DNA of 64,000 nt, taken from positions 161,278 through 225,277 of the forward strand of contig CAYZJA010000002.1 in assembly GCA_964479005.1 (NCBI GenBank), in the 5' to 3' direction. The DNA is from an uncultured Candidatus Saccharibacteria bacterium (GTDB lineage Bacteria > Patescibacteriota > Minisyncoccia > UBA6257). Shown piece after piece: positions 10,853-29,623 of this stretch; within the stretch, counting starts at the first letter, position 1; each line of letters begins with the position of its first letter. The notes under the pieces were generated by a model. The model saw nothing but the letters and a program-made list of their open reading frames with translations. It made no database searches and had not been told where the DNA came from. Both the position numbers and the translations under genes were made by a program.

Positions 10853-10898
<46 letters not shown>

Positions 10899-14703: not shown

Positions 14704-14736
<33 letters not shown>

Positions 14737-14898
14737 CACTCCAAGATTAGGTATCGTTTCCCATTTATGGGAGTGAGATTCCTGGAAGATGACCAGGTTG
14801 ATAGGCTCTAGGTGGAAGTCCAGTAATGGATTAAGCCGAGGAGTACTAATTATCAAAGCAACTTTCCTATCTTTAGTGAAAAGAAATATTTTAAAATT

Positions 14899-15008
14899 CC
14901 GCTGGTGTTTTACTTAATTATGGTCCACCTCTTCCCATTCCGAACAGAGAAGTGAAAGTAATTAAGCCCGATGATACTCTTTTGGGGAAAGTAGGGTATG
15001 CCAGCGGT
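14899..15008 (+). rRNA. rrf: 5S ribosomal RNA
   Basis: Helix I CCGCTGGTG...GCCAGCGG, loop motifs CCGAACAGAGAAGTGAAAG and GGGAAAGTAGGGTATGCC. Sits 38 nt after the 23S 3' end. Confidence 0.85.
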
Positions 15009-15245: not shown

Positions 15246-16598
15246 ATGGACAAACGATTAAGAAAACAAATTGTTATTGCTTTGGTATTTTTAGGCATTT
15301 TTTCGCTTATTGGCGGGGGAATTTATTTAACTCATCGTTCAGCTCCAACTTGTTTTGATAATAAGCGCAATCAAGGAGAAGAAGACGTAGATTGCGGAGG
15401 TCCTTGTATCTTGTGTGAATTAAAATACAATCCTCCACTTTCTTTAGCTGACTCTCCTGTTTTATTAGTTAATCAAGAAAATAAAGTTGACATCCTTTTT
15501 AAAATTACTAATTTAAGCCAGGAATGGGGAGCTCAAGAATTTTTTTACAAAGTGATTCTTATAGGATCTAACCAAGAGAAACAAGAATTTATTAAATCTG
15601 GATTTATTTTTCCTCACGAGATTAGATATTTTATAGTTCCTAACATTGCGGTAGCATTTGAACCTTCAGAAGCTGATATAGAAATTTTGACAGAAACAAT
15701 TGTATGGAATAAGCCATTATCAGGCATAGATCTTAATTTAGGAGATCCTTTTATTGTTACAAATACTAAAATAATAAAACCCCAGCCTATTCCCGGGGTT
15801 GATTATAATGTTTATACTTTTACAAAAACTCTTGTATTGGGAATGAAAGATGCAGAAGTTTTTAACCTTCAGAAGGTTCTTCGCCTGGACCCCGCTATTT
15901 ATCCTGAAGGTGAAGTAACTGGATATTTTGGAAAATTAACAGAAGCTGCGGTAAAAAGATTTCAGAAAAAATATGGTATCAGGACTACTGGTCAAGTTGG
16001 TCCTCAGACAAGAGCAAAACTTCATGAACTCTATGGACCTAGTGATATGGGGCCATTTAGCTATATTTTTACTTTAACTTTAAAAAAAGGGAATCGAGGT
16101 AATGAAGTGCTTAACTTACAAAGGGCGTTAATGTTGGATTCAACAGTTAGTCCTTTAGGCTCTATTACAGGTTATTTTGGGGAAATTACTGAAAAAGCAG
16201 TAAAAGATTTTCAGAGAAAATATGGTATTAGAATTACTGGTCAAGTTGGTCCATTAACAAGGGATAAATTAAATGAACTTTTTAGTGAACCTCCTGAGAC
16301 GATAACTGGTTTACCAGGAGAACAATTAGAACCTTTTGAAGCCACTTTGGAAGTTAAAGGTGATGTTTATAATAGCACTTCATATAATTGGCGAAATGGA
16401 AATATAGCTATAATTCTTTGTGATGATAAAAGAAAACCTGTTTCTGTAGGGACGACAGTTTTAGAAGATATTTATTCTGGCAAATCTTCTCAATTTGTTA
16501 TTCAATGGCACCAGAAATTACCTGATGATATTACTATTTGTGAGAAAATTACAAATATTAATATTTTAGATGCGGAAAATGTTTTCTTAACTCCTTAG
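15246..16598 (+). CDS. Membrane-anchored protein with two peptidoglycan-binding (PG_binding_1-type) repeats
   Basis: N-terminal TM segment. Two homologous repeats ...VFNLQKVLRLDPAIYPEGEVTGYFGKLTEAAVKRFQKKYGIRTTGQVGPQT... and ...VLNLQRALMLDSTVSPLGSITGYFGEITEKAVKDFQRKYGIRITGQVGPLT... Confidence 0.7.
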   Translation: MDKRLRKQIVIALVFLGIFSLIGGGIYLTHRSAPTCFDNKRNQGEEDVDCGGPCILCELKYNPPLSLADSPVLLVNQENKVDILFKITNLSQEWGAQEFFYKVILIGSNQEKQEFIKSGFIFPHEIRYFIVPNIAVAFEPSEADIEILTETIVWNKPLSGIDLNLGDPFIVTNTKIIKPQPIPGVDYNVYTFTKTLVLGMKDAEVFNLQKVLRLDPAIYPEGEVTGYFGKLTEAAVKRFQKKYGIRTTGQVGPQTRAKLHELYGPSDMGPFSYIFTLTLKKGNRGNEVLNLQRALMLDSTVSPLGSITGYFGEITEKAVKDFQRKYGIRITGQVGPLTRDKLNELFSEPPETITGLPGEQLEPFEATLEVKGDVYNSTSYNWRNGNIAIILCDDKRKPVSVGTTVLEDIYSGKSSQFVIQWHQKLPDDITICEKITNINILDAENVFLTP

Positions 16599-16614
16599 CT
16601 TGCGCAAATAAATT

Positions 16615-17691
16615 ATGTTTAAGACTGACTCTCTTTTGTTTTTCTCTCTCTTTATTTTGATTGCCCTAGGTTTATTAGTGTTATGGAGCATATCTTCTCA
16701 AGATGCTGCTCCTTTTTTTTCTTTTAAAAAACAACTGGTTCTTTTAGCAATAAGCATTTGCGCGTTTTTTGTTTTTTCCTTTTTGGATTGGCGAATTTTT
16801 AATTCTTCCCAATTAATTCTGATTTTATATCTTTCATCCTTAGTTTTATTAGTTGTTGTATTGTTTTTTGGAGACAAGAGCAGTGGGGTGGCTGGTTGGT
16901 TTAATTTTGGATCATTTAGTTTTCAGCCAATAGAAATAGCAAAACTTTCTTTAATTATAATATTAGCTAAATATTTATCATCTCGGCATTTGGAAATTTG
17001 GCGGTTCCGTCATCTATTAACCTCTGGGTTTTTTACTTTTACTCCAATGGCTTTAATTGCCGCCCAGCCTGATTTAGGCGGCGCAATGATATTTGGAGCA
17101 ATTTGGCTTGGTTTGGTATTTATAAGTGGAATCAGATTTAAACAAATCATTCTTTTAATTATTATTTTTGGCTTAGTAGCGGGTTTGTCCTGGAGTTTTC
17201 TTTTAAAACCTTATCAGCAATCCCGAATTCTTAGCTTTATATATCCGCAAGAGGATCCTTTAGGGGTTGGATATCATAGAGAACAGGCATTGATTGCCAT
17301 TGGCTCTGGCAGAATCTTTGGCAGAGATTTGGGTTGGGGCTCTCAAACAAATTTGCGTTTTTTACCATTAGCCAAGACTGATTTTATTTTTGCCTCTTTA
17401 GCTGAATCATTGGGTCTGTTTGGCGTTTCTGTGTTATTAGTCTGTTTTTTATTTATTTTTTATCGGTTGGTTATTTGGGCTAATACATTTTCTTATAATT
17501 TTTGCAAACTTTTTACTATTGGATTTACCATTAAATTGTTAATTGGGGTTTTTGTTAATATTGGAATGAATTTGGGACTGCTTCCTATTGTGGGAATAGC
17601 CCTACCTTTTATTTCCGCAGGAGGTTCTCATCTTTTAATAGATTTTATTGGCCTGGGGATAATAAACAGTATGATAATCCACCGTGCCTAA
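16615..17691 (+). CDS. ftsW: SEDS family peptidoglycan glycosyltransferase (FtsW/RodA)
   Basis: 10-TM protein with conserved ...LPLAKTDFIFASLAESLGLFG... and ...LPFISAGGSHLL... Confidence 0.85.
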   Translation: MFKTDSLLFFSLFILIALGLLVLWSISSQDAAPFFSFKKQLVLLAISICAFFVFSFLDWRIFNSSQLILILYLSSLVLLVVVLFFGDKSSGVAGWFNFGSFSFQPIEIAKLSLIIILAKYLSSRHLEIWRFRHLLTSGFFTFTPMALIAAQPDLGGAMIFGAIWLGLVFISGIRFKQIILLIIIFGLVAGLSWSFLLKPYQQSRILSFIYPQEDPLGVGYHREQALIAIGSGRIFGRDLGWGSQTNLRFLPLAKTDFIFASLAESLGLFGVSVLLVCFLFIFYRLVIWANTFSYNFCKLFTIGFTIKLLIGVFVNIGMNLGLLPIVGIALPFISAGGSHLLIDFIGLGIINSMIIHRA

Positions 17692-17730: not shown

Positions 17731-18741
17731 ATGAAACAAGTGCAATTTATCAAAATCTCATTATTCATCATTGTTTGCGTATTAGTGCTATTTTTTTATA
17801 TATTAGTTAATTTTTCATTAACTTGTCAGGGAGAGTGTAATTTTTCAATAGAGAAAGGAGAAAACTTAAAAAGTATTGCCGATCGTTTAAGAAATCAAAA
17901 ATTTGTTTCTTCATCTATGTTGTTTCAATTTTACGTAAAAATAAAAGGTCAGGAAAAAAACATCAAAGCAGGAGATTATTCATTTATTTCACCTTTAACG
18001 ATTACTAACATAACCGAGATTATTACTAATGGAAAATTAACTAATAATAGTTTCCTCATAGCAGAAGGGGAGACAATGTTAGAGATAGAGGAAAATCTAA
18101 GAGAAAAAGGTCTAATTGATGCATTTTCATCATTAAAAGAATGGAAAACAGGGGATTTTCTTGAAAAAAAATATTTTGATATTTTTTCTGAAATTCCTAC
18201 CGATGTTTCATTAGAAGGGTATTTATTTCCTGATTCTTATCATTTACCCCAGGGATTAGAAGAAGAAGAAATTCTTTCAATGTTTATAGATAATTTTGTC
18301 GCAAAAACTGAAAATGATTTATTTTTTGAGATAAAAGAGCAAAAAAGAAGTTTTTATGAAATTTTAACAATGGCTTCTTTGTTGGAAAAAGAAGTTCGCG
18401 AAGAAACAGACAAAAGAATGGTAGCAGATATTCTTTGGAGGAGATTGGATACGAATTTTCTTCTTCAAGTTGACGCAACAATTTGTTATGCTGAATTTCA
18501 ATCATTTAAAAAATGTTCTCTTACCCGTGAATTATTTAAATTAGATTCTCCTTATAACACTTATCTTTATAAAGGATTACCGCCTACACCTATTAATAAT
18601 CCTGGAATAGAATCAATACAAGCAGCTTTAAATCCATTAGTAAATGATTATTGGTATTATATGACTGACAGAGAAACAGGAAAAACTATTTTTTCTGAAA
18701 CATTTGATGAACACTTAGAATCCCGCGGGAAATATCTATAG
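17731..18741 (+). CDS. mltG: Endolytic murein transglycosylase MltG (YceG family), full length
   Basis: N-terminal TM, KAGDYSF, LTMASLLEKE, LQVDATICYA, SPYNTYLYKGLPPTPINNPG. Confidence 0.85.
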   Translation: MKQVQFIKISLFIIVCVLVLFFYILVNFSLTCQGECNFSIEKGENLKSIADRLRNQKFVSSSMLFQFYVKIKGQEKNIKAGDYSFISPLTITNITEIITNGKLTNNSFLIAEGETMLEIEENLREKGLIDAFSSLKEWKTGDFLEKKYFDIFSEIPTDVSLEGYLFPDSYHLPQGLEEEEILSMFIDNFVAKTENDLFFEIKEQKRSFYEILTMASLLEKEVREETDKRMVADILWRRLDTNFLLQVDATICYAEFQSFKKCSLTRELFKLDSPYNTYLYKGLPPTPINNPGIESIQAALNPLVNDYWYYMTDRETGKTIFSETFDEHLESRGKYL

Positions 18742-18997
18742 GAATTTTTATTTGATTTAAATAGTTTGCTATGATATATTTCAGTTGAGGGACAATATCG
18801 TCCCCTAACTGAAATAACTATTTAATTAAAAATGGCTAAAAAAACAGAAAAGTTAAATATTACTAAGATCCAAGAAAAGATTACTCGGGCTAATTTGAAA
18901 TTATTTACTTCTTTGGATTATCAAAGAATACTTAATTTAGATTATCAGGCGGCAAAGAGAAGCATTACTCGCTACATTCACGCAGGGTTTTTAGTAA

Positions 18998-19483
18998 AAG
19001 CCAGAAAAGCTTATCCCATTGATTATTAAAAATATCTTGGAAGGGAAAAGTTTGCCAGTGTATGGAGATGGAAAGAATGTTAGAGATTGGATTTATGTTG
19101 AAGATCATTGCAAGGCAATAGATTTGGTTTTGGATAAAGGTAAATTAAGTGAAGTATATAATATAGGTGGATGTGATGAAAAACAAAATATAGAAATAGT
19201 TAAAATTCTTATAGACACAATCAAAGATTTGATAAAGAAAAATTCGGAATATCAGTTTATTTTAAAAACTGATTTATCTAATATTAATTATAATTTAATA
19301 GAATATGTAAAAGACAGAAAGGGTCATGATAAAAGATATGCTATAGATTCTACAAAAATAAAAAATGAACTCGGGTGGTTTCCCGAAACAAAATTTGGAG
19401 ATGGTATAGTTAAAACAATTAAATGGTATTTTGAAAATCAAGATTGGGTAGAAAACAAGCACGAGCTCTTCAAAAATATATAA
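18998..19483 (+). pseudogene. 3' fragment (about 160 codons) of a dTDP-glucose 4,6-dehydratase (rfbB) paralogue; a remnant with no N-terminal half
   Basis: The open frame begins right after a stop codon with ...[38 protein letters not shown]..., collinear with residues from about 190 onward of the intact RfbB at 30482-31501 ([38 protein letters not shown]). Apparent TTG start. Confidence 0.7.
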
Positions 19484-19595
19484 ATAATAAAGATACAGTG
19501 GCTGACCTTAGTTGTGGTATTGGAAGAGCACTAACTTTTCTTAAAGTTAAAAAAATTGTCGATTATTATAAAAATTTTAAGGAGGCAAAGAATTT

Positions 19596-20744
19596 ATGAA
19601 AATAGGAATATTAACATTTAATTGGGCACTTAATTATGGAGCTGTATTACAAATGTATACATTATATAAGTATTTGAGTAAAAACAATGAGGTTTTTGTT
19701 ATAAATTATGTTCCAGATTACTTAGCTAATCTATATAGTACAAAGATTTTTGATAAACCCTTGAGAATTAAATCAGTAATGGAAAAAATGCTGCAAAAAC
19801 TAATAAAACATAAACAATATAAAAAATTCAAGGAATTTATTGATAAAGATATTACTTTAACAGAAAAGGCTAAAAATAGTGCTGAGTTATTAAAAATAAT
19901 AAACAAACTTGATTTAGTTGCAGTAGGAAGTGACCAAGTTTGGAATTATGATATAACAAAAGACCATTTAAAGGATTATCTTTTAAGTAATATAAATTGT
20001 AACAAGATAAGTTATGCTGCTAGTCTTGGTAAAAATGAAATTAAAAGTGAAGTTGTAGGTTTATTTAAAAAATCTCTAAAAAATTTTGATTTTGTTTCTT
20101 TAAGGGAAGAAGCATCAATAAGTTATCTTAATAAAATTTGTAAAAGAAAAAATTACAAATTGTGTATTGATCCTGTTTTCTTGTTTAAAAAGGAGGAATG
20201 GGAAATCATTGCCGAAAAAAGTTATTGTAAATTGCCGAATAAAGAATATATACTTGTATATATGTTAGAATATAATGCTAATTTAATCAAAGTGGCTAAA
20301 TATTTATCTAAAATATATAATATATCTGTGGTTAGTATAGAAATTCCTTTTTTAACACTTGAAAGAATAACAAAAATGAAAAAAATTAAAAAACTACATG
20401 ATGTAGGGCCAATAGACTTTGTTAAATTATTTTCAAATGCAAAATATATTTTAACAAATTCTTTTCATGGGACAGCTTTTTCATTAATTTTTAATAAGCA
20501 GTTTATTTCGTTTGCTCATTCAACTGTAAATTTAAGGATGGAAAATCTTTTGAAGCTGTATGGTTTAGAAAATAATCAAATAGCTAATTCGTTTAAGGAT
20601 ATTGAAGTTGTTAAAAAAATTTTAGAAAAGAGTAAACAAGCATATAATAACCAAAATAAAGAAATAGATAATGTTATTGAAGTTTCAAAAAAATATTTAG
20701 ATGATGTTGTAAAAGAAATTACAAATAAGAAGGGAAAATTATGA
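19596..20744 (+). CDS. Polysaccharide pyruvyl transferase family protein (CsaB/WcaK-like)
   Basis: N-terminus MKIGILTFNWALNYGAVLQMYTLYKYL is typical of the family (…HxxNYGAxLQxYAL…). 382 aa. Confidence 0.55.
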   Translation: MKIGILTFNWALNYGAVLQMYTLYKYLSKNNEVFVINYVPDYLANLYSTKIFDKPLRIKSVMEKMLQKLIKHKQYKKFKEFIDKDITLTEKAKNSAELLKIINKLDLVAVGSDQVWNYDITKDHLKDYLLSNINCNKISYAASLGKNEIKSEVVGLFKKSLKNFDFVSLREEASISYLNKICKRKNYKLCIDPVFLFKKEEWEIIAEKSYCKLPNKEYILVYMLEYNANLIKVAKYLSKIYNISVVSIEIPFLTLERITKMKKIKKLHDVGPIDFVKLFSNAKYILTNSFHGTAFSLIFNKQFISFAHSTVNLRMENLLKLYGLENNQIANSFKDIEVVKKILEKSKQAYNNQNKEIDNVIEVSKKYLDDVVKEITNKKGKL

Positions 20745-20828
20745 AAAATAATGTTTTTAAAAAAATTAAGCTAAGTTATTTTATATATTACAATTATTTT
20801 TGTCGTAATACTACATGGGGGAAGAATT

Positions 20829-21092
20829 ATGTTATACTGTTATAATAATACAATTTGCGATATAAGTTCTACTGCTAAAATTATATTAAATGGAAATTTA
20901 ATTCTCAATTCCTATAAGCTAAAAAAATCAAAGGCTGAAATGTTACTTAGAATGAAAGAAAATACAAAATTAGTTGTAAATGGAAATTTTTCTTTTTACT
21001 ACAATTGTGATATTAATATTTTTGACGGTGGAAGATTAACAATAGGTTCAGGATATGCTAATTGTGGTACACATTGCCTCTTACCCCATTGA
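20829..21092 (+). pseudogene. Short hexapeptide-repeat (left-handed beta-helix acyltransferase-like) fragment, possibly frameshift-disrupted
   Basis: 87-aa ORF with an isoleucine/glycine hexad pattern (NGNLILNS…VVNGNFSF…GGRLTIGSG). An out-of-frame continuation (PIEEKGLAENKHWNLMK) follows the stop. Confidence 0.3.
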
Positions 21093-21261
21093 GGAAAAAG
21101 GTCTTGCAGAAAACAAGCATTGGAATTTGATGAAGTAGAATACACTCTCAGCTAGCTGGTTAAACCAGACGGAGTAATTGAATATGTGAAAAATACGTTA
21201 TAGTACTCTTTGTTAATTTGGTAAATGAAATAAAATATAATTATGTAATGGTGGTGATATT

Positions 21262-22326
21262 ATGAAAATAATACTTTTAGGTGGTACAGGTGCTATAGGA
21301 AGTCATTTGACAAACCTTTTATCTGATAGAAAAGATAAGGTTGTAGTAACTTCTCGAAGCCGTAATGAATCGAAAGAATTAGTTGAATATCGACAAGGAA
21401 ATGCTAAAAACATAGATTTTTTGAGTGATGTTTTACGGGAACAATGGGATGCAATCGTTGATTTTATGGTCTATTCTGAAGATGAATTTCGTGAACGGGT
21501 AGATTTATTGCTGAGTTCTACATCTCAATATGTTTTCTTAAGTTCAGCTAGAGTTTATAATGAAAGTCAAGAGGCTATAACAGAGGAATCTGCAAGACTA
21601 TTAGATTCTTCTTCTGATTATGATTTTTTAGCTACAAGCGAATATTCTCTTTCAAAAGCTCGACAAGAAAATATGTTACGTTCATCAAATAAGAAAAACT
21701 GGACTATTGTACGTCCGTATATTACGTACAGCGAAAAGCGTTTGCAACTTGGAACTCTAGAAAAAGAAAATTGGCTTTATAGAGCATTACAAGGAAGATC
21801 CATAGTATTTTCTGAAGATATTAGGAACCACTTAACTACTCTAACCTATGGTTTAGATGTGGCAACTGGAATTGCAAGTCTTATCAATAATCCAAAATCT
21901 TTTGGGGAAACATATCATATTACAAACGAATGTGCATGCAAATGGAGCGATATTTTAAACATATATTTAGATGTATTAGAGAATAAATTAGGAAATCGAC
22001 CTAAAGTAATCTACCAAAATTTACCTGATTTTCTAGTGTGGAATCCAGGAAAATACCCAATTATTTATGATCGGCTTTTTGATAGAAAATTTGATAATAC
22101 AAAAATCAATAAATTAATAAACGCAAAAGAATTTGTACAAGTTCAGAATGGATTGAGAAAGAGTTTAAATACGTTTTTAATAAGCCCAGAATTTAGTAGT
22201 ATAAGCTGGAAAAATGAAGCGATAAAAGACAGATACGCTAAAGAAAGAACTCCATTAAAAGAAATCAGTGGCTTTAAGCAAAAAGTTAAATATTTGGCTT
22301 TTAGATATTTCATTAAAATTAAATAG
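21262..22326 (+). CDS. NAD(P)-dependent epimerase/dehydratase (SDR/NmrA-like) family protein
   Basis: N-terminal Rossmann GxxGxxG (MKIILLGGTGAIGSHL). 354 aa. Glycan-cluster context. Confidence 0.55.
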   Translation: MKIILLGGTGAIGSHLTNLLSDRKDKVVVTSRSRNESKELVEYRQGNAKNIDFLSDVLREQWDAIVDFMVYSEDEFRERVDLLLSSTSQYVFLSSARVYNESQEAITEESARLLDSSSDYDFLATSEYSLSKARQENMLRSSNKKNWTIVRPYITYSEKRLQLGTLEKENWLYRALQGRSIVFSEDIRNHLTTLTYGLDVATGIASLINNPKSFGETYHITNECACKWSDILNIYLDVLENKLGNRPKVIYQNLPDFLVWNPGKYPIIYDRLFDRKFDNTKINKLINAKEFVQVQNGLRKSLNTFLISPEFSSISWKNEAIKDRYAKERTPLKEISGFKQKVKYLAFRYFIKIK

Positions 22327-22356
22327 TACAAAATATAAATTTAGAGAGGTAATAAA

Positions 22357-24099
22357 ATGAAAACATATTATACAGACGAAAAAAATATACAGATTTTGAT
22401 TGCATTACTTAAAGGACATGGAATTAGAAAAGTAGTCGCATCTCCTGGAACAGCAAATATGACTTTTGTTAGAAGCCTGCAAAATGATTCTTTTTTTGAA
22501 ATATACTCATCTATTGACGAGCATTCAGCAGCTTATATGGCTTGCGGATTGGCAGCTGAATCAGGAGAACCTGTAGTTTTAAGTTGTACTGGTGCAACTG
22601 CATCAAGAAACTATATGCCGGGATTGACAGAAGCTTACTATCGTAAATTACCAATACTTTCTGTTACAGCTACTCAAGAAATTGCAAAAGTTGGTCATCA
22701 CATTCCTCAGGTTTTAGATCGTAGCTCTATGCCTAATGATGTTGTAAAACACAGTGTTCAACTGCCATTAGTTAAAGATGATACTGATTGGTGGAGTTGT
22801 GAGGTTAAGGTAAATAATGCCCTATTAGAATTAAGTCGGCATGGAGGCGGACCTGTGCACATTAATTTAAGTATGGATTGTAGATTTTCGTTCAAAACTG
22901 TAGAATTACCAAAAGTTCGTGTAATTAAGCGCATTAAAACACAATCAAGTGAGTATCCTTCTATGCCTGAAGGTAAAGTTGCGGTATTTGTTGGATCGCA
23001 TGCAGAAATGACTAAAGATCAAATAAGTGCACTTGAACATTTTTGTGAATCCAATAATGCAGTAGTGTTCTGTGACCACACAAGTGGATACAAAGGGAAA
23101 TATTGTGTTGTTCATTCGCTTAGTTCTTCTCAAAGACTATCGGACTTTGATGGATTACGCCCTGATTTGTTAATTCATATTGGAGAAATTACCGGAGACT
23201 ATTCTGTTAGTAGTATAGTTGGAAAACAGATTTGGAGAGTTAGCGAAGATGGCGAGTTACGAGATACTTATCGTAAACTTCAGTATGTTTTTGAAATGCC
23301 CGAACAAGTTTTTTTTAAACATTATACTAAAAACGATATAAATAGTGGACTTTATTTACAAGTATGTCGTGATTATCTTGAACAATTGCTCAATAAAATA
23401 CCAGAACTTCCATTCTCTAATCTTTGGATAGCAAAAAAAATACATAAGCTAATTCCAGAAAATTCTACTATTCATTTCGCAATTTTAAATAGTCTTCGTT
23501 CATGGAATTTTTTTGAATTACCAAAAACAGTTGAATCTAATTCCAATGTTGGAGGATTCGGAATCGATGGTTGTCTTTCTTCTTTAGTAGGAGCTTCGTT
23601 GGCAAAAAAAGATAGATTATATTTCGGTATCATCGGTGACTTAGCATTCTTTTATGATATAAATTCTATAGGTAATCGTCATGTAGGAAATAATTTACGA
23701 ATTCTTCTAGTCAATAACGGAAAAGGCACAGAATTTAGAAATTTCAATCAGCCAGCGGCACAATTTGGAGAATCAGCAGATGAATTTATAGCAGCCGGAG
23801 GCCATTTTGGAAACAAGTCACAAACCCTAGTAAAAAATTATAGCGAGAGTCTTGGTTTTGAATATTTATCTGCATCAAATAAAGCAGAGTTTGAGCAAGT
23901 CTATGAAAGATTTCTAACTGACCAGATGCTCGATAAACCTATATTATTAGAGGTATTTACAAATAGTGTAGATGAAAGTAAGGCTTTGGAAATGATAACA
24001 TCAATTAGTACAACAGTTAAAATGAAAACGAAAGATGTTATAAGAAATGTTGTAGGTAAGAATAATATTAGAAAAATCAAAAAATTTATTAAAGGTTAA
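22357..24099 (+). CDS. Thiamine-pyrophosphate-dependent enzyme of the acetolactate-synthase/2-ketoacid decarboxylase superfamily (candidate sugar-branching or acyloin-forming enzyme)
   Basis: 580 aa. N-terminal Pyr domain (…SPGTANMTF…EHSAAYMACGLA…) and C-terminal TPP-binding motif IIGDLAFFYDINSIG…NLRILLVNNGKG (GDG…NN). Confidence 0.65.
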   Translation: MKTYYTDEKNIQILIALLKGHGIRKVVASPGTANMTFVRSLQNDSFFEIYSSIDEHSAAYMACGLAAESGEPVVLSCTGATASRNYMPGLTEAYYRKLPILSVTATQEIAKVGHHIPQVLDRSSMPNDVVKHSVQLPLVKDDTDWWSCEVKVNNALLELSRHGGGPVHINLSMDCRFSFKTVELPKVRVIKRIKTQSSEYPSMPEGKVAVFVGSHAEMTKDQISALEHFCESNNAVVFCDHTSGYKGKYCVVHSLSSSQRLSDFDGLRPDLLIHIGEITGDYSVSSIVGKQIWRVSEDGELRDTYRKLQYVFEMPEQVFFKHYTKNDINSGLYLQVCRDYLEQLLNKIPELPFSNLWIAKKIHKLIPENSTIHFAILNSLRSWNFFELPKTVESNSNVGGFGIDGCLSSLVGASLAKKDRLYFGIIGDLAFFYDINSIGNRHVGNNLRILLVNNGKGTEFRNFNQPAAQFGESADEFIAAGGHFGNKSQTLVKNYSESLGFEYLSASNKAEFEQVYERFLTDQMLDKPILLEVFTNSVDESKALEMITSISTTVKMKTKDVIRNVVGKNNIRKIKKFIKG

Positions 24100-24113
24100 T
24101 ATAAAATTAAAAT

Positions 24114-24431
24114 ATGAAAATACTTACCAAAATTAAATCTATAGGAAAGCACTTGCCTAAACCAATTAAGCATATTATTAGACCTTTCTACATTAAAGTA
24201 AAAGGGAAAGAAAGAATAATAGTATACAAAGAATTACTACAAGATACAGCTGAATTTCACAATAGAATTGATGATTCTAGAATTAATTATCAAGAGCTCG
24301 ATAAAATTGATAGAATACTTAAACAATTAAATCCTTTAGATGTGAGAAATTATATGTATTTAATAGTTTCTCTTTTTGGTTCGAAATGTTATTATAGATT
24401 AAGTAAGTTGAAACATAGTCTAAATAATTAA
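24114..24431 (+). CDS. Hypothetical basic 105-aa protein
   Basis: ORF only; no recognisable motif. Confidence 0.3.
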   Translation: MKILTKIKSIGKHLPKPIKHIIRPFYIKVKGKERIIVYKELLQDTAEFHNRIDDSRINYQELDKIDRILKQLNPLDVRNYMYLIVSLFGSKCYYRLSKLKHSLNN

Positions 24432-24526
24432 TTCACTTTATCCCTATGTTTTAAATAAGGTGAGAGAAGCTTTTTGTAATTATTGTATTCTTATTGTTTC
24501 TCTTAAACTAATGTTGATAAAAAACT

Positions 24527-24730
24527 ATGAATCCACAGCAATTGTACCATAAACAGTATGCCGAGCATGCCTTAATAATTAATCATGAATCTTTTTTCAA
24601 GAAAACCTTTCATAAGTTTAATGTCCATAGAAGAAATGTAGCAATTTCTTTACTAGAGAGAGGAAATAATTTACTTGATATTGGTTGTGGAGAAGGGTCA
24701 CTTTTATTAAAGGCAAGAAATAAATATTAA
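24527..24730 (+). pseudogene. 5' fragment of a class I SAM-dependent methyltransferase, cut off at the mltG-duplication junction
   Basis: 67-aa ORF ending …LLDIGCGEGSLLLKARNKY* (motif I only), abutting the duplicated mltG 3' segment. Confidence 0.5.
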
Positions 24731-25532
24731 AGCGGGGGATTATCGATTTATTTCGCCGCTAACAATTGCCAAAATAACCGAGGCTATTACTAATGGAAAA
24801 TTAAGCAATAATCATAGTTTTCTCATAACAGAAGGGGAAACAATGCTGGAGATAGAGGAAAATTTAAAAGAGAAAGGTTTAATTGACAAATCTGCCTCAT
24901 TAAAAGAATGGAAAATAGGAGATTTTCTTGAGAAAAAACATTTTGATATTTTTTCTCAAATTCCTTCAGATGCTTCATTAGAGGGCTTTTTATTTCCTGA
25001 TTCTTATCATTTACCCCAAGGATTGGAAGAAAAAGAAATTCTTTCAATACTTATTGATAATTTTGTCGCAAAAGCCCGTGGTGAGTTTAGTCAAACCACT
25101 AAAAATGATTTATTTTTTGATATTAAGGAGCAAAAAAGAAGTTTTTATGAAATTTTAATAATAGCTTCTTTGTTGGAAAAAGAAGTTCGTGTAGAGACAG
25201 ATAAAAGAATGGTGGCAGATATTCTTTGGAGGAGATTGGATACAAATTTTCCTCTTCAGGTAGATGCAACAATATGCTATGCAAAATATGAATCATTTAA
25301 AAATTGTTCTCTTACCCGTGAATTATTTAAATTAGATTCTCCGTACAATACTTATATTTATAAAGGATTGCCTCCTACGCCTATTAATAATCCCGGAATA
25401 GAATCAATACAAGCGGCTTTAAATCCATTGGCAAATGATCATTGGTATTATATGACTGACAGAAAAACAGGAAGAACAGTCTTTTCTGAAACATTTGACG
25501 AGCATTTAGAATTTCGCGGAAAATATCTATAA
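24729..25532 (+). pseudogene. 5'-truncated second copy of the mltG 3' portion (about residue 80 to the C-terminus) with no N-terminal TM or start context
   Basis: In-frame translation from 24729 (KAGDYRFISPLTIAKITEAITNGKLSNNHSFLITEGETMLEIEE…SPYNTYIYKGLPPTPINNPG…) is collinear with MltG 17968-18741, with near-identical stretches at the nucleotide level. Confidence 0.7.
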
Positions 25533-25553
25533 AAACCAAAAACAGAGAATATT

Positions 25554-26639
25554 ATGAAAATTTTTATAATTTTAGGTACTCGTCCAGAGATTATTAAAAT
25601 GTCTCCTGTTATAAGGGAATGTATTAAAAAAAGGCTGAATTTTTCGATTTTGCATACAAATCAGCATTACTCGGAAAATTTGGATAAGGTATTTTTTAAA
25701 GAATTAAATTTACCTCGACCAAAATATAATCTGAATGTTGGTTCTGGAACTCATGCTGAGCAAACAGCGAAAATTCTTGTTGGAGTGGAAAAGATTTTAC
25801 TAAAAGAAAGGCCAGATATTGTTTTAGTTGAGGGCGATACTAATACAGTATTAGCAGGCGCTTTAGCAGCTGCTAAACTTCATATTAAAGTAGGGCATAT
25901 TGAAGCGGGATTGAGGTCTTATTATAGGGAAATGCCAGAAGAAATTAATAGAATTTTAGTTGATCATTGTTCTGATTTGCTTTTTACTCCAACAAAAGAA
26001 ACGAAAGACATACTCTTAAATGAAGGGATTCCTCGTAATAAAATATTTGTTACAGGCAATACTATAATTGACGCTGTTTTTCAGAATCTTAAATTAGCTG
26101 AGAAAAAATCAAAAATATTGGAAAAACTTAATTTATCAAAAAGAGGATATTTTTTAATGACTGCCCATCGCGCAGAGAATGTTGATAATGAAAGTAGGCT
26201 AAGAGGTATTTTAAAAGGTGTTGAGATGACTTCTGAAAAATTTTCTTTGCCTGTAATTTATCCCATTCATCCGAGAACAAGAAAGATGATGAAAAAATTT
26301 AAACTTAAGGTTTCAAATAAGGTTAGATTACTCGAACCAATAGGCTATTTGGATTTTTTAAAACTTGAAAATAGTGCTAAACTAATACTTACTGATTCAG
26401 GGGGAATACAAGAAGAAGCTTGCGCAATGCGAGTTCCTTGCGTAACTTTGAGAGATAATACTGAAAGGCCAGAAACAATAGATGTAGGTAGTAATCTGTT
26501 GTCAGGTGCTAATCCTTTAAGAATCTTAAAATCTGTTTCAAAAATGATGAATAAAAACAGAAAATGGAAAAATCCATTTGGTTCTGGCAAAACAGCGGAA
26601 AAAATAATCAAAATTATCCAGAAAAATGAAAAAGCATAA
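25554..26639 (+). CDS. wecB: UDP-N-acetylglucosamine 2-epimerase (non-hydrolysing)
   Basis: MKIFIILGTRPEIIKMSPV…HTNQHYS…GDTNTVLAGALAA…HIEAGLRS…. Confidence 0.9.
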   Translation: MKIFIILGTRPEIIKMSPVIRECIKKRLNFSILHTNQHYSENLDKVFFKELNLPRPKYNLNVGSGTHAEQTAKILVGVEKILLKERPDIVLVEGDTNTVLAGALAAAKLHIKVGHIEAGLRSYYREMPEEINRILVDHCSDLLFTPTKETKDILLNEGIPRNKIFVTGNTIIDAVFQNLKLAEKKSKILEKLNLSKRGYFLMTAHRAENVDNESRLRGILKGVEMTSEKFSLPVIYPIHPRTRKMMKKFKLKVSNKVRLLEPIGYLDFLKLENSAKLILTDSGGIQEEACAMRVPCVTLRDNTERPETIDVGSNLLSGANPLRILKSVSKMMNKNRKWKNPFGSGKTAEKIIKIIQKNEKA

Positions 26640-26790
26640 GGCAATATGTGTAATAGGCCTTGGTTATATTGGTTTGCCAACTGGCTGTTGTTTAGCTAAA
26701 GCTGGTTATGAAGTAATCGGCTTTTATTTAAATGAAGAGAAAATTAAGACTCTAAAATCGAAATTAAAAATTAACCAAGATGGATCTTAA
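26626..26790 (+). pseudogene. N-terminal remnant (54 codons) of a UDP-ManNAc/UDP-sugar dehydrogenase (wecC-like), truncated where the flippase gene begins
   Basis: MKKHKAICVIGLGYIGLPTGCCLAKAGYEVIGFYLNEEKIKTLKSKLKINQDGS*, the dinucleotide-binding N-terminus of WecC/Ugd. Overlaps the wecB stop and the wzx start. Confidence 0.65.
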
Positions 26791-28261
26791 AGATACAATC
26801 AAAAATATTGTTTTAAACCCAAGCGCTTTTTTTCTTAAAAACTCAGGAACTAAGCAGACTATTGCTAAAAACACTTTTTGGTTGGCAATAGCGGAAGGTA
26901 TATCCAAGTTTTTAAAATTAATTTTAATTATTTATATTGCCCGAATTTTAGGGGCTACTGAATACGGAAAATTCACTTTTGCTTTAGCTTTTGTTTCTTT
27001 ATTTGCCATTTTTTCTGATTTTGGTGTTTCTTCAATCACTACTCGCGAACTTGCCCGGGAAAAAGAGAAAGAAAAAGAATTTCCCAATATTCTTTCTTTA
27101 AAACTCGTTTTGGGTATAGGAGCTTTATTTTTAATTTGTCTTGGTTCTTTTTTTATTACCACTGACCCCTTGATTCGCGCGATAATCTGGATTTTAGGAA
27201 TTTATATTATAGTAAGCAGTTTCTCGGGGATTATTTATGCTTTTCTAAGGGCTTGTCAGCAAATGGAATACGAGGCCTGGACTAAAATTCTACAAGCGAT
27301 GGTTGTAACCGGGGCTGGTTTTTTTGTTCTTTTTAATTTTCCCTCGGTTCAAAGTTTAAGTTTAGCTTATTTGTTTGCCGTCTCAATTGCTTTGATTGCT
27401 ATATTGACTTTTTTTCACTTCAAGATTTATCAACTGAAATTAAGTTTTAATAAAAATATATGGCGAAATGTTTTATTAATGTCTTGGCCTCTGGCTTTAG
27501 CAGGGATATTCGGAACGATTTATAGCCAAACTGATTCGATAATGATGGGTTATTTTGGCCAAATTACCCAAGTTGGTTGGTATAATGCCGCTTATAAAAT
27601 TATCGGAGCAACTTTGATTCCAGTAGGTCTTATCTCCATAAGTTTTTTTCCACTATTTAGTAAATTATTCAAAGAATCAAAAGAAAAACTTCAGAAATCT
27701 TGGGATTATTATATGCAGTTGATGATTTTTTTATCCGTGCCTTTAATAGTAGGAGGTATAGTTTTAGCCCCAAAAATTATTGATTTTGTTTACAATTCAA
27801 GTTATTTTCCATCAATTTTAGCCTTTCAAATTTTACTAATAATGGCAGCACTTTCTTATATTTGCAATCCTTTTGGCCAGGCATTAATTGTTTCAAATCA
27901 GCAAAAAAGACTTTTTTGGATAACTTTATCAGGAGCAATCGTCAATGTTGGGCTAAACTTAATTCTAATTCCAAAATACAGCCTTTATGGAGCAGCTTTC
28001 ACCACAGTTGTTACTTTGTTTTTAATTCTCTTTTTGCTTTACAAATTCACGTCAAAATTTACTCCAATCAAACCATTTAATTTAAAATTTCTTTTTAGTT
28101 TTCTTGGCGCTACTTTTTCTAGTATTCTAATGTATCTTGTAATTTCTCAACCGAATGTTTATAATTTAAATATCTTTCTTTCCATCCTTATAGGAAGTTT
28201 AATCTACTTTTTGTGTTTTTTTCTTCTTAGAAAAATCACAAATTTGCTTAAATTTTTATAA
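26780..28261 (+). CDS. wzx: Wzx-type oligosaccharide flippase (MOP superfamily polysaccharide biosynthesis protein)
   Basis: 493 aa with about 12-14 TM helices. Typical Wzx N-terminal region (…KNTFWLAIAEGISK…ILGATEYGKF…). Confidence 0.75.
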   Translation: MDLKDTIKNIVLNPSAFFLKNSGTKQTIAKNTFWLAIAEGISKFLKLILIIYIARILGATEYGKFTFALAFVSLFAIFSDFGVSSITTRELAREKEKEKEFPNILSLKLVLGIGALFLICLGSFFITTDPLIRAIIWILGIYIIVSSFSGIIYAFLRACQQMEYEAWTKILQAMVVTGAGFFVLFNFPSVQSLSLAYLFAVSIALIAILTFFHFKIYQLKLSFNKNIWRNVLLMSWPLALAGIFGTIYSQTDSIMMGYFGQITQVGWYNAAYKIIGATLIPVGLISISFFPLFSKLFKESKEKLQKSWDYYMQLMIFLSVPLIVGGIVLAPKIIDFVYNSSYFPSILAFQILLIMAALSYICNPFGQALIVSNQQKRLFWITLSGAIVNVGLNLILIPKYSLYGAAFTTVVTLFLILFLLYKFTSKFTPIKPFNLKFLFSFLGATFSSILMYLVISQPNVYNLNIFLSILIGSLIYFLCFFLLRKITNLLKFL

Positions 28262-28326
28262 CATATGAAAAATTTTATATTCAATCAATTTATGGGATAC
28301 CATATAATTATTAATAAAAAAGTAAA

Positions 28327-29064
28327 ATGAAAGGCATAGTTTTAGCAGGTGGCACGGGTTCAAGGTTAAAACCTTTAACAAATGTTACAAACAAGCATCT
28401 TTTACCTGTTGGTAAGTACCCAATGATTTTTTATCCGATTTATCAATTGAAACAATCAGGTATTACGGAAATTCTTATTGTAACTAGTAGAGGACATATG
28501 GGAGACGTTATTGAACTTCTTGGAAGTGGGTATGAATTTGGTGTTCAGTTTACTTTTAAAGTTCAAGATCAAGCAGGAGGAATTGCTCAGGCGCTAGGTT
28601 TAGCAGAGCATTTTGTTGACGGGGATCGTTGCGTTGTTATTCTTGGAGATAATATTTTTGAAAATGATATTACTCCTTTTGTTGAATCATTTGAAAAACA
28701 AGAAAAAGGAGCAAAAATACTTCTAAAAGAAGTTTCAGATCCCCAGAGATTTGGTGTAGCTGAGCTTAGAGATAGAAAAATTATTTTGATTGAAGAAAAA
28801 CCAAAACGACCAAAAAGCAATTTTGCCGTTACTGGTATTTATATGTATGACTCTAAAGTATTTGATATTATTAAAACAATAAAACCTTCGGAAAGAGAGG
28901 AACTTGAAATAACGGATGTAAATAATAATTATATTCAACAAGGCACGTTAACTTATGATATTTTAAAAGGTTGGTGGACTGATGCAGGGACTTCCGAATC
29001 TTTATTTCGAGCAAATGAATTTTGTAAAGATATAATCTTGAATTTTAAAAATGGAAAAGTTTAA
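28327..29064 (+). CDS. rfbA: Glucose-1-phosphate thymidylyltransferase (short form)
   Basis: MKGIVLAGGTGSRLKPLT…KHLLPV…ILGDNIF…. Confidence 0.85.
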   Translation: MKGIVLAGGTGSRLKPLTNVTNKHLLPVGKYPMIFYPIYQLKQSGITEILIVTSRGHMGDVIELLGSGYEFGVQFTFKVQDQAGGIAQALGLAEHFVDGDRCVVILGDNIFENDITPFVESFEKQEKGAKILLKEVSDPQRFGVAELRDRKIILIEEKPKRPKSNFAVTGIYMYDSKVFDIIKTIKPSEREELEITDVNNNYIQQGTLTYDILKGWWTDAGTSESLFRANEFCKDIILNFKNGKV

Positions 29065-29623
29065 AGTAATTAAAACTCCAATTAAAGATCTTGTAATAAT
29101 AGAAACGAAAATATTCAAAGATGATAGGGGATTTTTTATAGAAAGTTATAATTCAAAAGATTTTACTGATATTGGAGTTAATGGTCACTTTGTGCAAGAT
29201 AATCATTCGATGTCAAAAAAAGGAGTTTTGAGAGGGTTACATTTTCAGTTTAAACATTCTCAAGGGAAGCTTGTTCGGGTAATTTCAGGAAAGGTATTTG
29301 ATGTTGCAGTTGATTTAAGGTTAAACTCGTCAACTTTTGGGAAATGGTATGGAGTGGAACTTTCTGGTAATAATGGACTTCAATTTTATATACCTTCTGA
29401 CTTTGCTCACGGTTTTCTTACCCTTCAAGAAAATACACATTTCTTTTATAAATGTACTGATTTTTACTGTCCTGATGATGAATTGGGAATTATATGGGAT
29501 GATAAAGATATAGGTATCCAGTGGCCTTTATCTCAAGTTGAGAAGATTATAATTTCCAAGAAAGACAGTCAGTTACCCCCTTTTAGTGAAGTGAGGAGGA
29601 TATTAGAAAAAGAAAATTCTTGA
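29051..29623 (+). CDS. rfbC: dTDP-4-dehydrorhamnose 3,5-epimerase
   Basis: Cupin fold with RGFFIESYN…RGLHFQ…QGKLVRV…HGF. Confidence 0.9.
   Translation: MEKFKVIKTPIKDLVIIETKIFKDDRGFFIESYNSKDFTDIGVNGHFVQDNHSMSKKGVLRGLHFQFKHSQGKLVRVISGKVFDVAVDLRLNSSTFGKWYGVELSGNNGLQFYIPSDFAHGFLTLQENTHFFYKCTDFYCPDDELGIIWDDKDIGIQWPLSQVEKIIISKKDSQLPPFSEVRRILEKENS

What the first reader, a model, noticed from the sequence alone, without database searches (positions are those of the whole stretch)
17968..25532. About 6-kb alternative sugar-modification module bracketed by a duplicated mltG 3' end; signature of cassette exchange in the glycan locus
The last ~780 bp of mltG (17968-18741) recur at 24729-25532 as a 5'-truncated, startless copy that is highly similar at the nucleotide level. 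The ~6 kb between the copies holds a pyruvyl transferase, an SDR-like epimerase and a TPP-dependent enzyme. Both junctions carry gene debris: an rfbB 3' fragment (18998-19483) and a methyltransferase cut off after motif I (24527-24730). An imperfect 15-bp inverted repeat (18779-18814) sits at the left junction. This is the footprint expected if a homologous crossover inside mltG imported a foreign glycan module from a relative, that is, a variable surface-glycan island.
Basis: seen in the sequence. Interest (0 to 1): 0.7.

Follow-up and report, generated by a model that had tools for sequence, protein, structure and literature searches.

The report
Recombination scar in variable glycan locus
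A small uncultured (CPR-type) bacterium has a leftover second copy of the end of its cell-wall gene mltG, stranded when pieces of other strains' sugar-coat gene clusters were spliced in next to it; this is a clear but ordinary example of how bacterial surface-sugar loci get reshuffled.

Summary
The 3' ~800 bp of mltG (17941-18741) recurs at 24706-25532 at ~87% nucleotide identity, in frame, without the gene's 5' part. An independent assembly from another sample spans both junctions. The two copies diverged as working genes in different lineages (dN/dS 0.14, dS 0.49), so this is not an in-place duplication.

The site just downstream of the conserved PG-binding/ftsW/mltG genes is hypervariable in ~30 relatives. 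It carries different glycan clusters, toxin-antitoxin pairs or an ATPase. Variants with mltG directly followed by wecB exist.

However, the "island" is not one cassette brought in by a crossover inside mltG. It is a patchwork of at least six blocks of different ancestry. They are joined at short microhomologies and leave five gene fragments (AbiEi-like 5', rfbB 3', methyltransferase 5', mltG 3', wecC 5'). The truncated mltG belongs to a 2-kb 'mltG-wecB-wecC' block from a lineage where mltG is followed by wecB. One relative (L013) has an independent mltG 3' relic with a different breakpoint and cargo.

The best mechanism is serial illegitimate or homology-facilitated illegitimate recombination, plausibly by natural transformation (inferred). 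This is a new member of a known kind, of moderate-to-low interest.

The parts
15246..17691 (+). Conserved left flank: PG_binding_1 protein (15246-16598) and FtsW/RodA (16615-17691)
   Evidence: Present in the same order upstream of mltG in every relative long enough to show it. It is 92-99% nt identical to L017.
17731..18741 (+). mltG_L: full-length MltG/YceG (336 aa), probably the resident gene
   Evidence: Pfam YceG, E = 1e-71, profile 1-272 of 275. Its 3' part is 88-93% identical to L017, the closest relative on both flanks.
18743..19009 (+). 5' part of an AbiEi-like gene module: promoter-like site 18752-18780, palindrome 18777-18816, and the first ~59 codons (18832-19009) of a 213-aa-type protein
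   Evidence: 69% nt and 57% aa identity to L031 10921-11167, where the gene is full length. That protein is homologous (E = 2e-13) to the upstream partner of a Pfam-confirmed AbiEii toxin. Its own AbiEi Pfam hit is below threshold. Promoter scan, hairpin fold.
19001..19009 (.). Joint 1: AbiEi-like 5' fragment joined to rfbB 3' fragment, with about 9 nt of overlap (CCAGAAAAG)
   Evidence: AbiEi-type homology (L031) reads through 19009, and rfbB-type homology (L007) starts at 19001.
18998..19483 (+). rfbB (dTDP-glucose 4,6-dehydratase) 3' fragment
   Evidence: Pfam GDP_Man_Dehyd, profile 201-331 of 332. 88% nt identical to rfbB of L007/L009/L029, but 73% to the window's own rfbB at 30482-31501.
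19596..20744 (+). Polysaccharide pyruvyl transferase, intact, in a low-GC block (22-25%) of unknown source (about 19455-20734)
   Evidence: Pfam PS_pyruv_trans, E = 1e-36. GC profile. No nucleotide-level relative among the fetched loci.
20735..24236 (+). L036-type block: small ORF (20829-21092), SDR (21262-22326), MenD-like TPP enzyme (22357-24099), and the first 41 codons of the 105-aa ORF (24114-24431)
   Evidence: 95-97% nt identical to L036 and 92% to L037. The SDR-TPP part is 81.8% nt identical to the Defluviitalea saccharophila chromosome. NCBIfam menD E = 1e-48, below the cut-off. Nearest solved structures are MenD at E = 5e-26.
24527..24727 (+). Methyltransferase 5' fragment, ending just after motif I
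   Evidence: 61% aa and 80% nt identity to residues 1-69 of the 239-aa methyltransferase of L028.
24714..24727 (.). Joint 2: methyltransferase fragment joined to mltG_R, with a 6-14 nt microhomology
   Evidence: Methyltransferase-parent homology runs through 24727. In-frame mltG homology starts at 24714, with patchy matches from 24709. The unusual K-to-I codon in this stretch comes from the methyltransferase parent.
24709..25532 (+). mltG_R: orphaned 3' fragment of a different mltG allele (codons ~70 to the end)
   Evidence: Pfam YceG, profile 40-271. dN/dS 0.137 and dS 0.485 against mltG_L. It carries the ancestral 8-residue segment RGEFSQT, also present in P0017, P0042, P0045 and P0047. Its closest full-length relative, L040 (87% aa), is followed by wecB.
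25554..26639 (+). wecB (UDP-GlcNAc 2-epimerase), intact, in the same block as mltG_R
   Evidence: NCBIfam wecB, E = 3e-132. The mltG-wecB adjacency is continuous with L030, L023 and L034 at about 85% nt.
26626..26790 (+). wecC 5' fragment (about 46 codons) and Joint 3 with the wzx start (about 26746-26777)
   Evidence: Pfam UDPG_MGDP_dh_N, profile 2-42 of 187. L023/L034 homology ends at 26746, and L017/L013/L028 wzx homology starts at 26777.
26780..31501 (+). The L017-like backbone resumes: wzx, rfbA, rfbC, rfbD, rfbB. The glycan locus continues to the priming transferase at 42685-43995.
   Evidence: 84-93% aa identity to L017, and mostly 84-97% nt. Pfam assignments.

Best explanation
This is a recombination scar in a hypervariable cell-surface glycan and accessory-gene hotspot. 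The hotspot starts directly after the stop codon of the conserved cell-wall gene mltG in a population of related small-genome (CPR/Patescibacteria-type) bacteria.

The backbone on both sides (PG-binding protein, ftsW and mltG_L on the left; wzx and rfbACDB on the right) resembles relative L017. In L017 only an AbiE toxin-antitoxin pair sits between mltG and wzx.

In this genome, the 8 kb between mltG_L and wzx (18742-26776) was assembled from fragments of several other strains' loci:
- the 5' part of an AbiEi-like module
- an rfbB 3' end
- a pyruvyl-transferase block
- an SDR plus MenD-like TPP enzyme cassette that also circulates in other phyla
- a methyltransferase 5' end
- a 2-kb 'mltG-wecB-wecC' fragment from a lineage in which mltG is followed directly by wecB

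The fragments were joined end to end by illegitimate recombination at short microhomologies. That cut genes wherever the ends fell and left five gene fragments. The second mltG copy is one of those fragments: a non-functional relic, not a boundary repeat made by the integration.

Shown: the repeat, its origin as an orthologue from another lineage, the block structure, two microhomology joints, the variability of the site, and an independent second relic in L013.

Inferred: DNA entered by natural transformation, with one homologous anchor in the conserved flanks and one illegitimate end (homology-facilitated illegitimate recombination). Also inferred: the order of events, and in which genome each joint arose. 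The intact pyruvyl transferase, SDR, TPP enzyme and wecB genes probably alter the sugar repeat unit that the rest of the locus builds.
For: - Repeat and frame.
- Divergence under purifying selection (dN/dS 0.137, 58 of 97 differences at third codon positions, p = 2e-7).
- The right copy keeps an ancestral, polymorphic 8-residue segment.
- Independent assemblies span both junctions, and contig breaks fall at the shared 38-mer.
- Conserved left flank and variable content after mltG in about 30 loci, including island-free mltG-wecB variants.
- Blocks with different closest relatives.
- Joint sequences with parental overlaps of 9 nt and 6-14 nt.
- wecC truncation.
- Backbone similarity to L017 on both sides, mltG_L fitting it and mltG_R not.
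- Second, independent relic in L013. It has a different breakpoint (codon ~190) and different cargo (AAA_14/DUF4143 ATPase plus a phosphoesterase). Its copies are 85% identical to each other, and its relic is contiguous with wzx as in L028 at 92%.
- No integrase or transposase among the island ORFs.
- The window encodes DprA and type IV pilus ATPase and platform proteins.
- Natural competence has been shown experimentally in Saccharibacteria: PMC10633639.
- HFIR and displacement models that leave orphaned 3' pieces are established elsewhere: PMC3240628, PMC5361080.
Against: - No near-identical donor was found for either mltG copy (best 87-88% aa) or for the pyruvyl-transferase block. Donors are therefore inferred from types, not identified.
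- Which mltG copy is resident rests on parsimony from one close relative (L017). L017 is itself mosaic in its mltG 5' part (70% nt).
- The microhomologies are A-rich in a 30% GC genome, so part of each overlap could be chance. The third joint (wecC'|wzx) shows no clear overlap.
- The test for relaxed selection on the relic's own branch is inconclusive: 12 nonsynonymous to 6 synonymous private changes, within the range of intact relatives.
- Transformation is only inferred. Transduction, or the conjugation-like systems reported in this group, cannot be excluded.
- The patchwork may have been assembled in other genomes and then moved here as one piece by ordinary homologous exchange.
Confidence: 0.7

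Rival explanations
1. Sequential displacement, with mltG_R as the resident relic. The ancestor had ftsW-mltG_R-wecB-wecC. Incoming DNA paired homologously in the conserved ftsW/mltG 5' region. It brought a complete foreign mltG_L plus its downstream cargo, and its non-homologous far end joined illegitimately inside the resident mltG at codon ~70, orphaning the resident 3' end. A separate event replaced the locus from wecC onward.
For: - The relic keeps its natural adjacency to wecB, as in L030, L023, L034 and L040.
- L013 shows the same geometry, with its relic contiguous with wzx as in L028.
- The anchor-plus-illegitimate-end geometry is the classic HFIR and Rhs/T6SS displacement pattern (PMC5361080).
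- The microhomology joint lies exactly at the mltG_R 5' end.
Against: - Both outer flanks are L017-like, and mltG_L fits that backbone better than mltG_R does.
- Only 2 kb would remain of the supposed resident locus.
- Two separate L017-like replacements, one on each side, would be needed.
Confidence: 0.2
2. A single homologous crossover inside mltG (Campbell-type integration of a circular fragment, or a double crossover) imported one ~6-kb glycan cassette, and the two mltG copies are the duplicated crossover target.
For: A full copy plus a 5'-truncated copy flanking foreign DNA is the geometry a single-crossover integration would give. The copies are homologous along about 800 bp.
Against: - The interval is not one cassette. 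It holds at least four blocks with different closest relatives and an internal joint.
- The mltG_R 5' end is fused to a methyltransferase gene at a microhomology, not at a homologous crossover.
- mltG_R is continuous with a wecB-wecC' block that is itself cut at its far end.
- The copies differ uniformly by about 12%, with no identity step marking a crossover.
Confidence: 0.06
3. An integrative element that targets the 3' end of mltG by site-specific recombination and carries a replacement 3' end, leaving the displaced original end at its far border.
For: Insertions start right after the mltG stop in many relatives. Two genomes have a displaced mltG 3' end.
Against: - No integrase, recombinase, transposase or relaxase lies in the island or in L013's insert.
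- The repeats are about 800 bp and 440 bp at 85-87% identity, with different breakpoints, rather than a short shared core.
- The cargo is unrelated between the two cases.
Confidence: 0.02
4. In-place tandem or segmental duplication of mltG followed by decay, or an assembly chimera of two strains.
For: Two copies lie on one contig. The metagenomic origin of the sequence makes a chimera conceivable.
Against: - dN/dS of 0.14 at dS of 0.49 means the divergence accrued in functional genes.
- The copies differ by a family-polymorphic 8-codon segment.
- The same sequence was assembled from a second sample across both junctions, and short-read graphs branch at the shared 38-mer in four runs.
- A chimera would switch inside the repeat and would not create a methyltransferase|mltG joint.
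Confidence: 0.02

Closest known systems
Homology-facilitated illegitimate recombination during natural transformation (Acinetobacter, Streptococcus pneumoniae, Pseudomonas stutzeri; reviewed in PMC3240628)
   Same: Foreign DNA is fixed next to a conserved homologous stretch. The far junctions fall at microhomologies of a few to about 14 nt between unrelated genes, and genes are cut at arbitrary positions. The host has DprA and type IV pilus genes.
   Different: Here it is inferred from natural sequence, not observed experimentally. Several joints are stacked in 8 kb. The homologous crossover itself was not located. The joint may have arisen in another genome of the population.
Sequential or C-terminal displacement at Rhs, CDI and T6SS effector loci, which leaves orphan 3' fragments (PMC5361080 and references there)
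   Same: A conserved upstream gene acts as an anchor, new downstream cargo arrives, and the old 3' end is shifted downstream as an orphan. The pattern recurs in independent genomes (window and L013).
   Different: The anchor is a housekeeping cell-wall gene. The cargo is glycan-biosynthesis, toxin-antitoxin or ATPase genes rather than toxin tips and immunity genes. There is no evidence that the orphan is ever reused.
Variable O-antigen and capsule loci flanked by conserved genes, such as galF/gnd in enterobacteria and dexB/aliA in pneumococcus (own knowledge)
   Same: The flanks are conserved while the content is highly variable. It includes Wzx, glycosyltransferases, an rfb/rml set and a priming transferase. 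Composition is atypical, gene remnants are present, and cassettes are shared across taxa.
   Different: The host is a small-genome CPR-type bacterium. The left anchor is mltG and the right border is near murB. Non-glycan cargo (AbiE toxin-antitoxin pair, AAA_14/DUF4143 ATPase) uses the same site.

Membership tests
MltG/YceG endolytic transglycosylase | Full YceG domain | tested here: met
   mltG_L matches Pfam YceG at E = 1e-71 over profile 1-272 of 275. mltG_R matches at E = 3e-62 but only from profile position 40.
MltG/YceG endolytic transglycosylase | N-terminal membrane anchor and a start codon, i.e. a functional gene | tested here: not met
   This applies to mltG_R only. Homology begins at codon ~70 of the family, and a stop codon lies at 24708-10 in that frame. 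The sequence upstream is a methyltransferase gene. mltG_R is therefore a gene fragment, not a second mltG.
Variable surface-glycan (O-antigen/capsule-type) locus | Conserved flanking genes with variable content between them across relatives | tested here: met
   PGb-ftsW-mltG is conserved in all relatives, and at least six different content types follow mltG.
Variable surface-glycan (O-antigen/capsule-type) locus | Wzx flippase, nucleotide-sugar genes, glycosyltransferases and a priming transferase | tested here: met
   The locus contains Wzx, wecB, rfbACDB, GT2/GT4 glycosyltransferases and a Bac_transf priming enzyme at 42685-43995.
Homology-facilitated illegitimate recombination scar | A junction between unrelated sequences at a short microhomology | tested here: met
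   The methyltransferase|mltG overlap is 24714-24727, and the AbiEi-like|rfbB overlap is 19001-19009. In both, each parental type was read across the joint. The third joint (wecC|wzx) shows no clear overlap.
Homology-facilitated illegitimate recombination scar | An identifiable homologous crossover (anchor) on the other side | tested here: inconclusive
   Sliding-window identity shows an L017-like backbone through ftsW and again from wzx, but no sharp step that can be assigned to this event.
Homology-facilitated illegitimate recombination scar | DNA uptake by natural transformation in the host | not testable with these tools
   DprA, a PilB/T-like ATPase and PilC are encoded in the window. Competence has been shown only for cultured Saccharibacteria (PMC10633639).
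Site-specific integrative island (integrase plus att repeats) | A linked integrase or recombinase | tested here: not met
   None was found among the island ORFs or in L013's insert.
Site-specific integrative island (integrase plus att repeats) | A short, near-identical core repeat at both borders, shared between occurrences | tested here: not met
   The repeats are about 800 bp at 87% identity (window) and about 440 bp at 85% (L013), with different breakpoints.
In-place gene duplication | Copies nearly identical, or diverged neutrally after duplication | tested here: not met
   dN/dS is 0.137 at dS of 0.485. The copies also differ by a family-polymorphic 8-codon segment.
AbiEi antitoxin (for the 65-aa ORF at 18832-19029) | A match to an AbiEi profile | tested here: inconclusive
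   The fragment has no Pfam hit. Its full-length homologue in L031 has none either. That homologue is related (E = 2e-13) to the partner of a Pfam-confirmed AbiEii toxin, and the partner has AbiEi_4 at E = 0.0012, below the cut-off.
MenD (SEPHCHC synthase), for the TPP enzyme | Reaches the NCBIfam equivalog cut-off, in a menaquinone gene context | tested here: not met
   TIGR00173 scores 166.8 bits against a cut-off of 244.2. In all four genomes the context is a polysaccharide locus next to an SDR. It is MenD-like in fold family only.

The most novel reading that the evidence does not exclude
The stop codon of mltG marks a recurrent landing site where naturally transformed DNA is fixed by one-sided homology plus microhomology joining in CPR/Patescibacteria populations. 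This would produce stacked orphan gene fragments (an Rhs/T6SS-style 'displacement array', but for surface glycans and defence genes). It would also let cassettes such as the SDR plus MenD-like TPP pair, 82% nt identical to a Firmicute, cross phylum boundaries. That would be the first natural-population evidence for HFIR-type gene acquisition in this group.
Probability: 0.3. Interest if true: 0.5.

Novelty: new member of a known kind. Interest (0 to 1): 0.33.

Why it matters
Surface glycans are likely to shape how these ultra-small bacteria attach to hosts and evade phages, and very little is known about how their genomes acquire new genes.

This locus gives a base-resolved record of at least three illegitimate joints. 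It also provides a conserved anchor gene that can be used to find the hotspot in other genomes, and a second independent relic. These point to recombination between diverged strains, and occasionally with other phyla, as the way the glycan locus is rebuilt.

It also flags a conserved, uncharacterised SDR plus MenD-like TPP enzyme pair in polysaccharide loci across phyla as a target for biochemistry.

The phenomenon itself, a variable glycan locus containing gene remnants, is well known in other bacteria.

Tried and rejected
(1) The methyltransferase ORF at 33925-34635 as the missing 3' half of the fragment cut at 24727. That would have meant a 9-kb insertion into one gene. Rejected: the full-length L028 homologue matches only 24527-24727, and the 33925 ORF is unrelated.

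(2) Short mltG proteins P0044, P0121, P0123 and P0058 as further truncated relics. Rejected: L033, L035, L041 and L025 are single copies with frameshifts, or lie at contig ends. Only L013 is a true second case.

(3) Relaxed selection on the relic's own branch. Inconclusive: 12 nonsynonymous to 6 synonymous private changes, two of them inside the joint.

(4) A near-identical donor for either mltG copy. None found in the protein database, the metagenome contigs or the genome contigs. The best hits are 87-88% aa.

(5) The rfbB fragment as an internal copy of the window's own rfbB. Rejected: 73% identity, against 88% to other strains.

(6) The promoter and terminator scan gave no enrichment over shuffles. 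Only the site at 18752-18780 is noteworthy, because of its position.

(7) Literature searches for the SDR/MenD-like/pyruvyl-transferase trio returned nothing relevant.

(8) The pyruvyl transferases near the SDR-TPP pair in other genomes are only 25-29% identical to the window's. A conserved "trio" is therefore not established, only the pair.

Full report
**Observation.** The window is a JGI metagenome contig. A full-length mltG (17731-18741, 336 aa, Pfam YceG E = 1e-71) lies downstream of a PG-binding protein and ftsW/rodA.

Its 3' ~800 bp recur 6.8 kb downstream. Local alignment pairs 17941-18740 with 24706-25531. Ungapped blocks of 300, 265 and 104 nt are 90, 88 and 80% identical. The codon alignment has 97 differences in 789 sites, and there are three in-frame indels of 3, 3 and 24 bp. 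Homology stops at both stop codons and at 17941/24706.

The second copy is an open frame from 24711 to 25532. It lacks the first ~70 codons, including the membrane anchor, and a stop codon lies in its frame at 24708-10.

**Not an artefact.** A contig from another sample (L002) is an exact substring of the window (18333-27162) and spans both junctions. Four short-read contigs begin exactly at the longest exact run shared by the two copies (38 nt at 25305-25342). That is what a k=31 assembly graph does at a true repeat.

**Nature of the duplication.** Differences between the copies are concentrated at third codon positions (22/17/58, p = 2e-7). dN/dS is 0.137 at dS of 0.485. The divergence therefore accumulated while both sequences were functional genes, that is, in separate lineages, and not after an in-place duplication.

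The 24-bp "insertion" in the right copy encodes RGEFSQT. This is a natural polymorphism of the family: RGEFSRT in P0017, with variants in P0042, P0045 and P0047 and in the more distant members.

The right copy's private changes (12 nonsynonymous, 6 synonymous, two of them inside the joint) are within the range seen in intact relatives. Decay since truncation is therefore not demonstrable, and the relic is probably young.

**The site is a hotspot.** Thirty-odd related loci were fetched. All keep PG-binding protein, ftsW and mltG, but differ immediately after the mltG stop:
- a distant wecB type followed by SDRs (L007, L008, L009, L012, L019, L033, L035)
- an SDR-first type (L010, L011, L014, L015, L024, L027)
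- mltG directly followed by wecB, with wecB 76-93% aa identical to the window's (L030, L023, L034, L040, L020)
- mltG directly followed by wzx (L028)
- an AbiEi-like plus AbiEii toxin-antitoxin pair (L017, L031; AbiEii is Pfam-confirmed)
- an AAA_14/DUF4143 ATPase (L013, L041)

L013 is a second, independent two-copy case. It has a full mltG, then an ATPase and a phosphoesterase, then a 440-bp mltG 3' relic starting at codon ~190, then wzx. Its copies are 85% identical to each other. The relic plus wzx is contiguous with L028 at 92% over 1.9 kb.

**The "island" is a patchwork.** Using relatives as stand-ins for the parental sequences, the blocks are:
- 18743-19009: the promoter region, palindrome and first ~59 codons of an AbiEi-like gene that is full length in L031 (69% nt)
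- 19001-19454: 88% identical to the rfbB 3' end of L007/L009/L029, but only 73% to the window's own rfbB
- about 19455-20734: the pyruvyl transferase, a low-GC block (22-25%) with no nucleotide relative among the fetched loci
- 20735-24236: small ORF, SDR and TPP enzyme, 95-97% identical to L036 from another sample and 92% to L037. The SDR-TPP part, exactly gene start to gene stop, is 81.8% nt identical to the Firmicute Defluviitalea saccharophila
- 24573-24727: 80% identical to the 5' end of a 239-aa methyltransferase in L028
- 24709-26746: 'mltG-wecB-wecC', about 85% identical to L030/L023/L034, where these genes are adjacent and wecC is long
- from 26777: the wzx-rfb backbone resumes

wecC is cut after about 46 codons.

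**Joints.** At the methyltransferase|mltG_R joint, methyltransferase homology reads through 24727 and in-frame mltG homology starts at 24714. That gives a 6-14 nt overlap, and the odd K-to-I codon there is inherited from the methyltransferase parent.

At the AbiEi-like|rfbB joint the parental homologies overlap at 19001-19009, CCAGAAAAG. The wecC|wzx joint shows no clear overlap.

These are illegitimate joints at microhomologies, not homologous crossovers. The caveat is that the overlaps are A-rich in a 30% GC genome, so part of each could be chance.

**Which copy is resident?** Sliding-window identity shows that the left flank is L017-like (92-99% through ftsW). The right flank from wzx onward is also L017-like (mostly 84-97%). 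The mltG_L 3' part is 88-93% identical to L017, whereas mltG_R is about 86% and has no relative close to it along its whole length. The closest full-length relative of mltG_R, L040 at 87% aa, is followed by wecB.

Parsimony therefore favours an L017-like ancestor, with mltG, a small insert and then wzx, into which foreign fragments were spliced. On this reading mltG_R arrived as the left end of the wecB fragment.

The alternative is that mltG_R is the resident gene's orphaned end after displacement from the left. This remains possible at about 0.2, and it is the simpler reading of L013.

**Mechanism.** No integrase, transposase or relaxase is present in the island or in L013's insert. The two cases have different breakpoints and different cargo. 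Both points argue against site-specific integration.

The geometry is a conserved anchor next to foreign DNA, far ends joined at microhomologies, and genes cut arbitrarily. This matches homology-facilitated illegitimate recombination (PMC3240628). It also matches the displacement model proposed for T6SS and Rhs loci, which likewise strands 3' fragments (PMC5361080).

The window encodes DprA, a PilB/T-like ATPase and PilC, and natural competence has been demonstrated in cultured Saccharibacteria (PMC10633639). Transformation is therefore plausible but inferred. The joints may also have formed in other genomes and been moved here by ordinary homologous exchange between conserved flanks.

**Function of the cargo.** The pyruvyl transferase, SDR, TPP enzyme and wecB are intact and co-oriented with the 25-kb glycan locus, which ends at the priming transferase (42685-43995) before murB.

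SDR followed by a MenD-like TPP enzyme is a fixed pair in all four genomic contexts examined, always in polysaccharide loci. Homologues at 65-86% aa occur in several phyla. The TPP enzyme is below the menD cut-off and only distantly related to solved MenD structures. Its chemistry is unknown; a TPP-dependent modification of a keto-sugar is a guess.

Pyruvyl transferases lie nearby in three of the four contexts, but they are only 25-29% identical to the window's. A conserved trio is therefore not established.

**Verdict.** It is wrong in mechanism and unit: this is not one cassette, not a crossover inside mltG, and the inverted repeat belongs to the truncated AbiEi-like module.

The finding is a well-resolved recombination scar of a known kind in an under-studied group. 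The novelty class is "new member of a known kind", with interest of about 0.33.

Noticed in passing
window 21262-24099; L036 1942-4779; L037 2129-4966; L038 6916-9743: An SDR followed by a MenD-like TPP enzyme is a fixed gene pair in polysaccharide loci. It is 97% and 92% nt identical in two other CPR-like contigs. It is 81.8% nt identical, exactly from gene start to gene stop, in the Firmicute Defluviitalea saccharophila. TPP homologues at 65-86% aa occur in Cloacimonadota, Actinomycetota, Sulfurimonas and Bacteroidota. The family is uncharacterised, and no paper was found.
   Followed up: partly
first ~45 nt after the mltG stop in L007, L012, L014, L015, L016, L024, L027, L029, L033: A conserved promoter-like motif (TTTTTAATTTAGGTTTATTCGTGATATTATAAGATTAAAT) follows the mltG stop whatever gene comes next. 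It may be a shared locus promoter or leader, comparable in position to JUMPstart in enterobacteria.
   Followed up: no
window 18752-18816; L031 ~10930-10965: A stable palindrome (fold -21.3 kcal/mol, z -6.7) lies directly after a TTGATT-17-TATATT promoter-like site. It is conserved upstream of the full-length AbiEi-like gene in L031, with one compensatory base-pair change. It is probably an operator or attenuator of that module.
   Followed up: partly
window 26626-26790: wecC (UDP-ManNAc dehydrogenase) is cut after about 46 codons and abuts the wzx start, while relatives L023 and L034 have a long wecC after wecB.
   Followed up: yes
window 10296-15007 and 63676-64000: The 23S rRNA is about 640 nt longer than the model and contains a LAGLIDADG endonuclease ORF (12542-13033). 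A second LAGLIDADG ORF (13966-14430) lies between the 23S and 5S genes. The 16S gene is unlinked, about 49 kb away.
   Followed up: no
window 7025-8074 (-), 51847-52917, 52910-54127: DprA, a PilB/PilT-like ATPase and PilC are encoded in the window, which is consistent with a DNA-uptake capability.
   Followed up: no
L017 2797-3200: The closest relative has a 188-bp insert between ftsW and mltG, and an mltG 5' part only 70% nt identical to the window's. The anchor gene itself is therefore mosaic in this population.
   Followed up: partly
L033 3124-3207, L035 ~117, L025 ~1015, L041 ~270: Several relatives have a frameshift inside their single mltG copy. Whether these are assembly errors or real pseudogenes was not resolved.
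   Followed up: no
window 19486-19595 and 20829-21092: A short frame with a methyltransferase-motif-I-like string (DLSCGIGR) follows the rfbB fragment, and there is an 87-aa ORF with no family match (69% aa to a 78-aa ORF in L036). Both may be further debris, but this was not verified.
   Followed up: no
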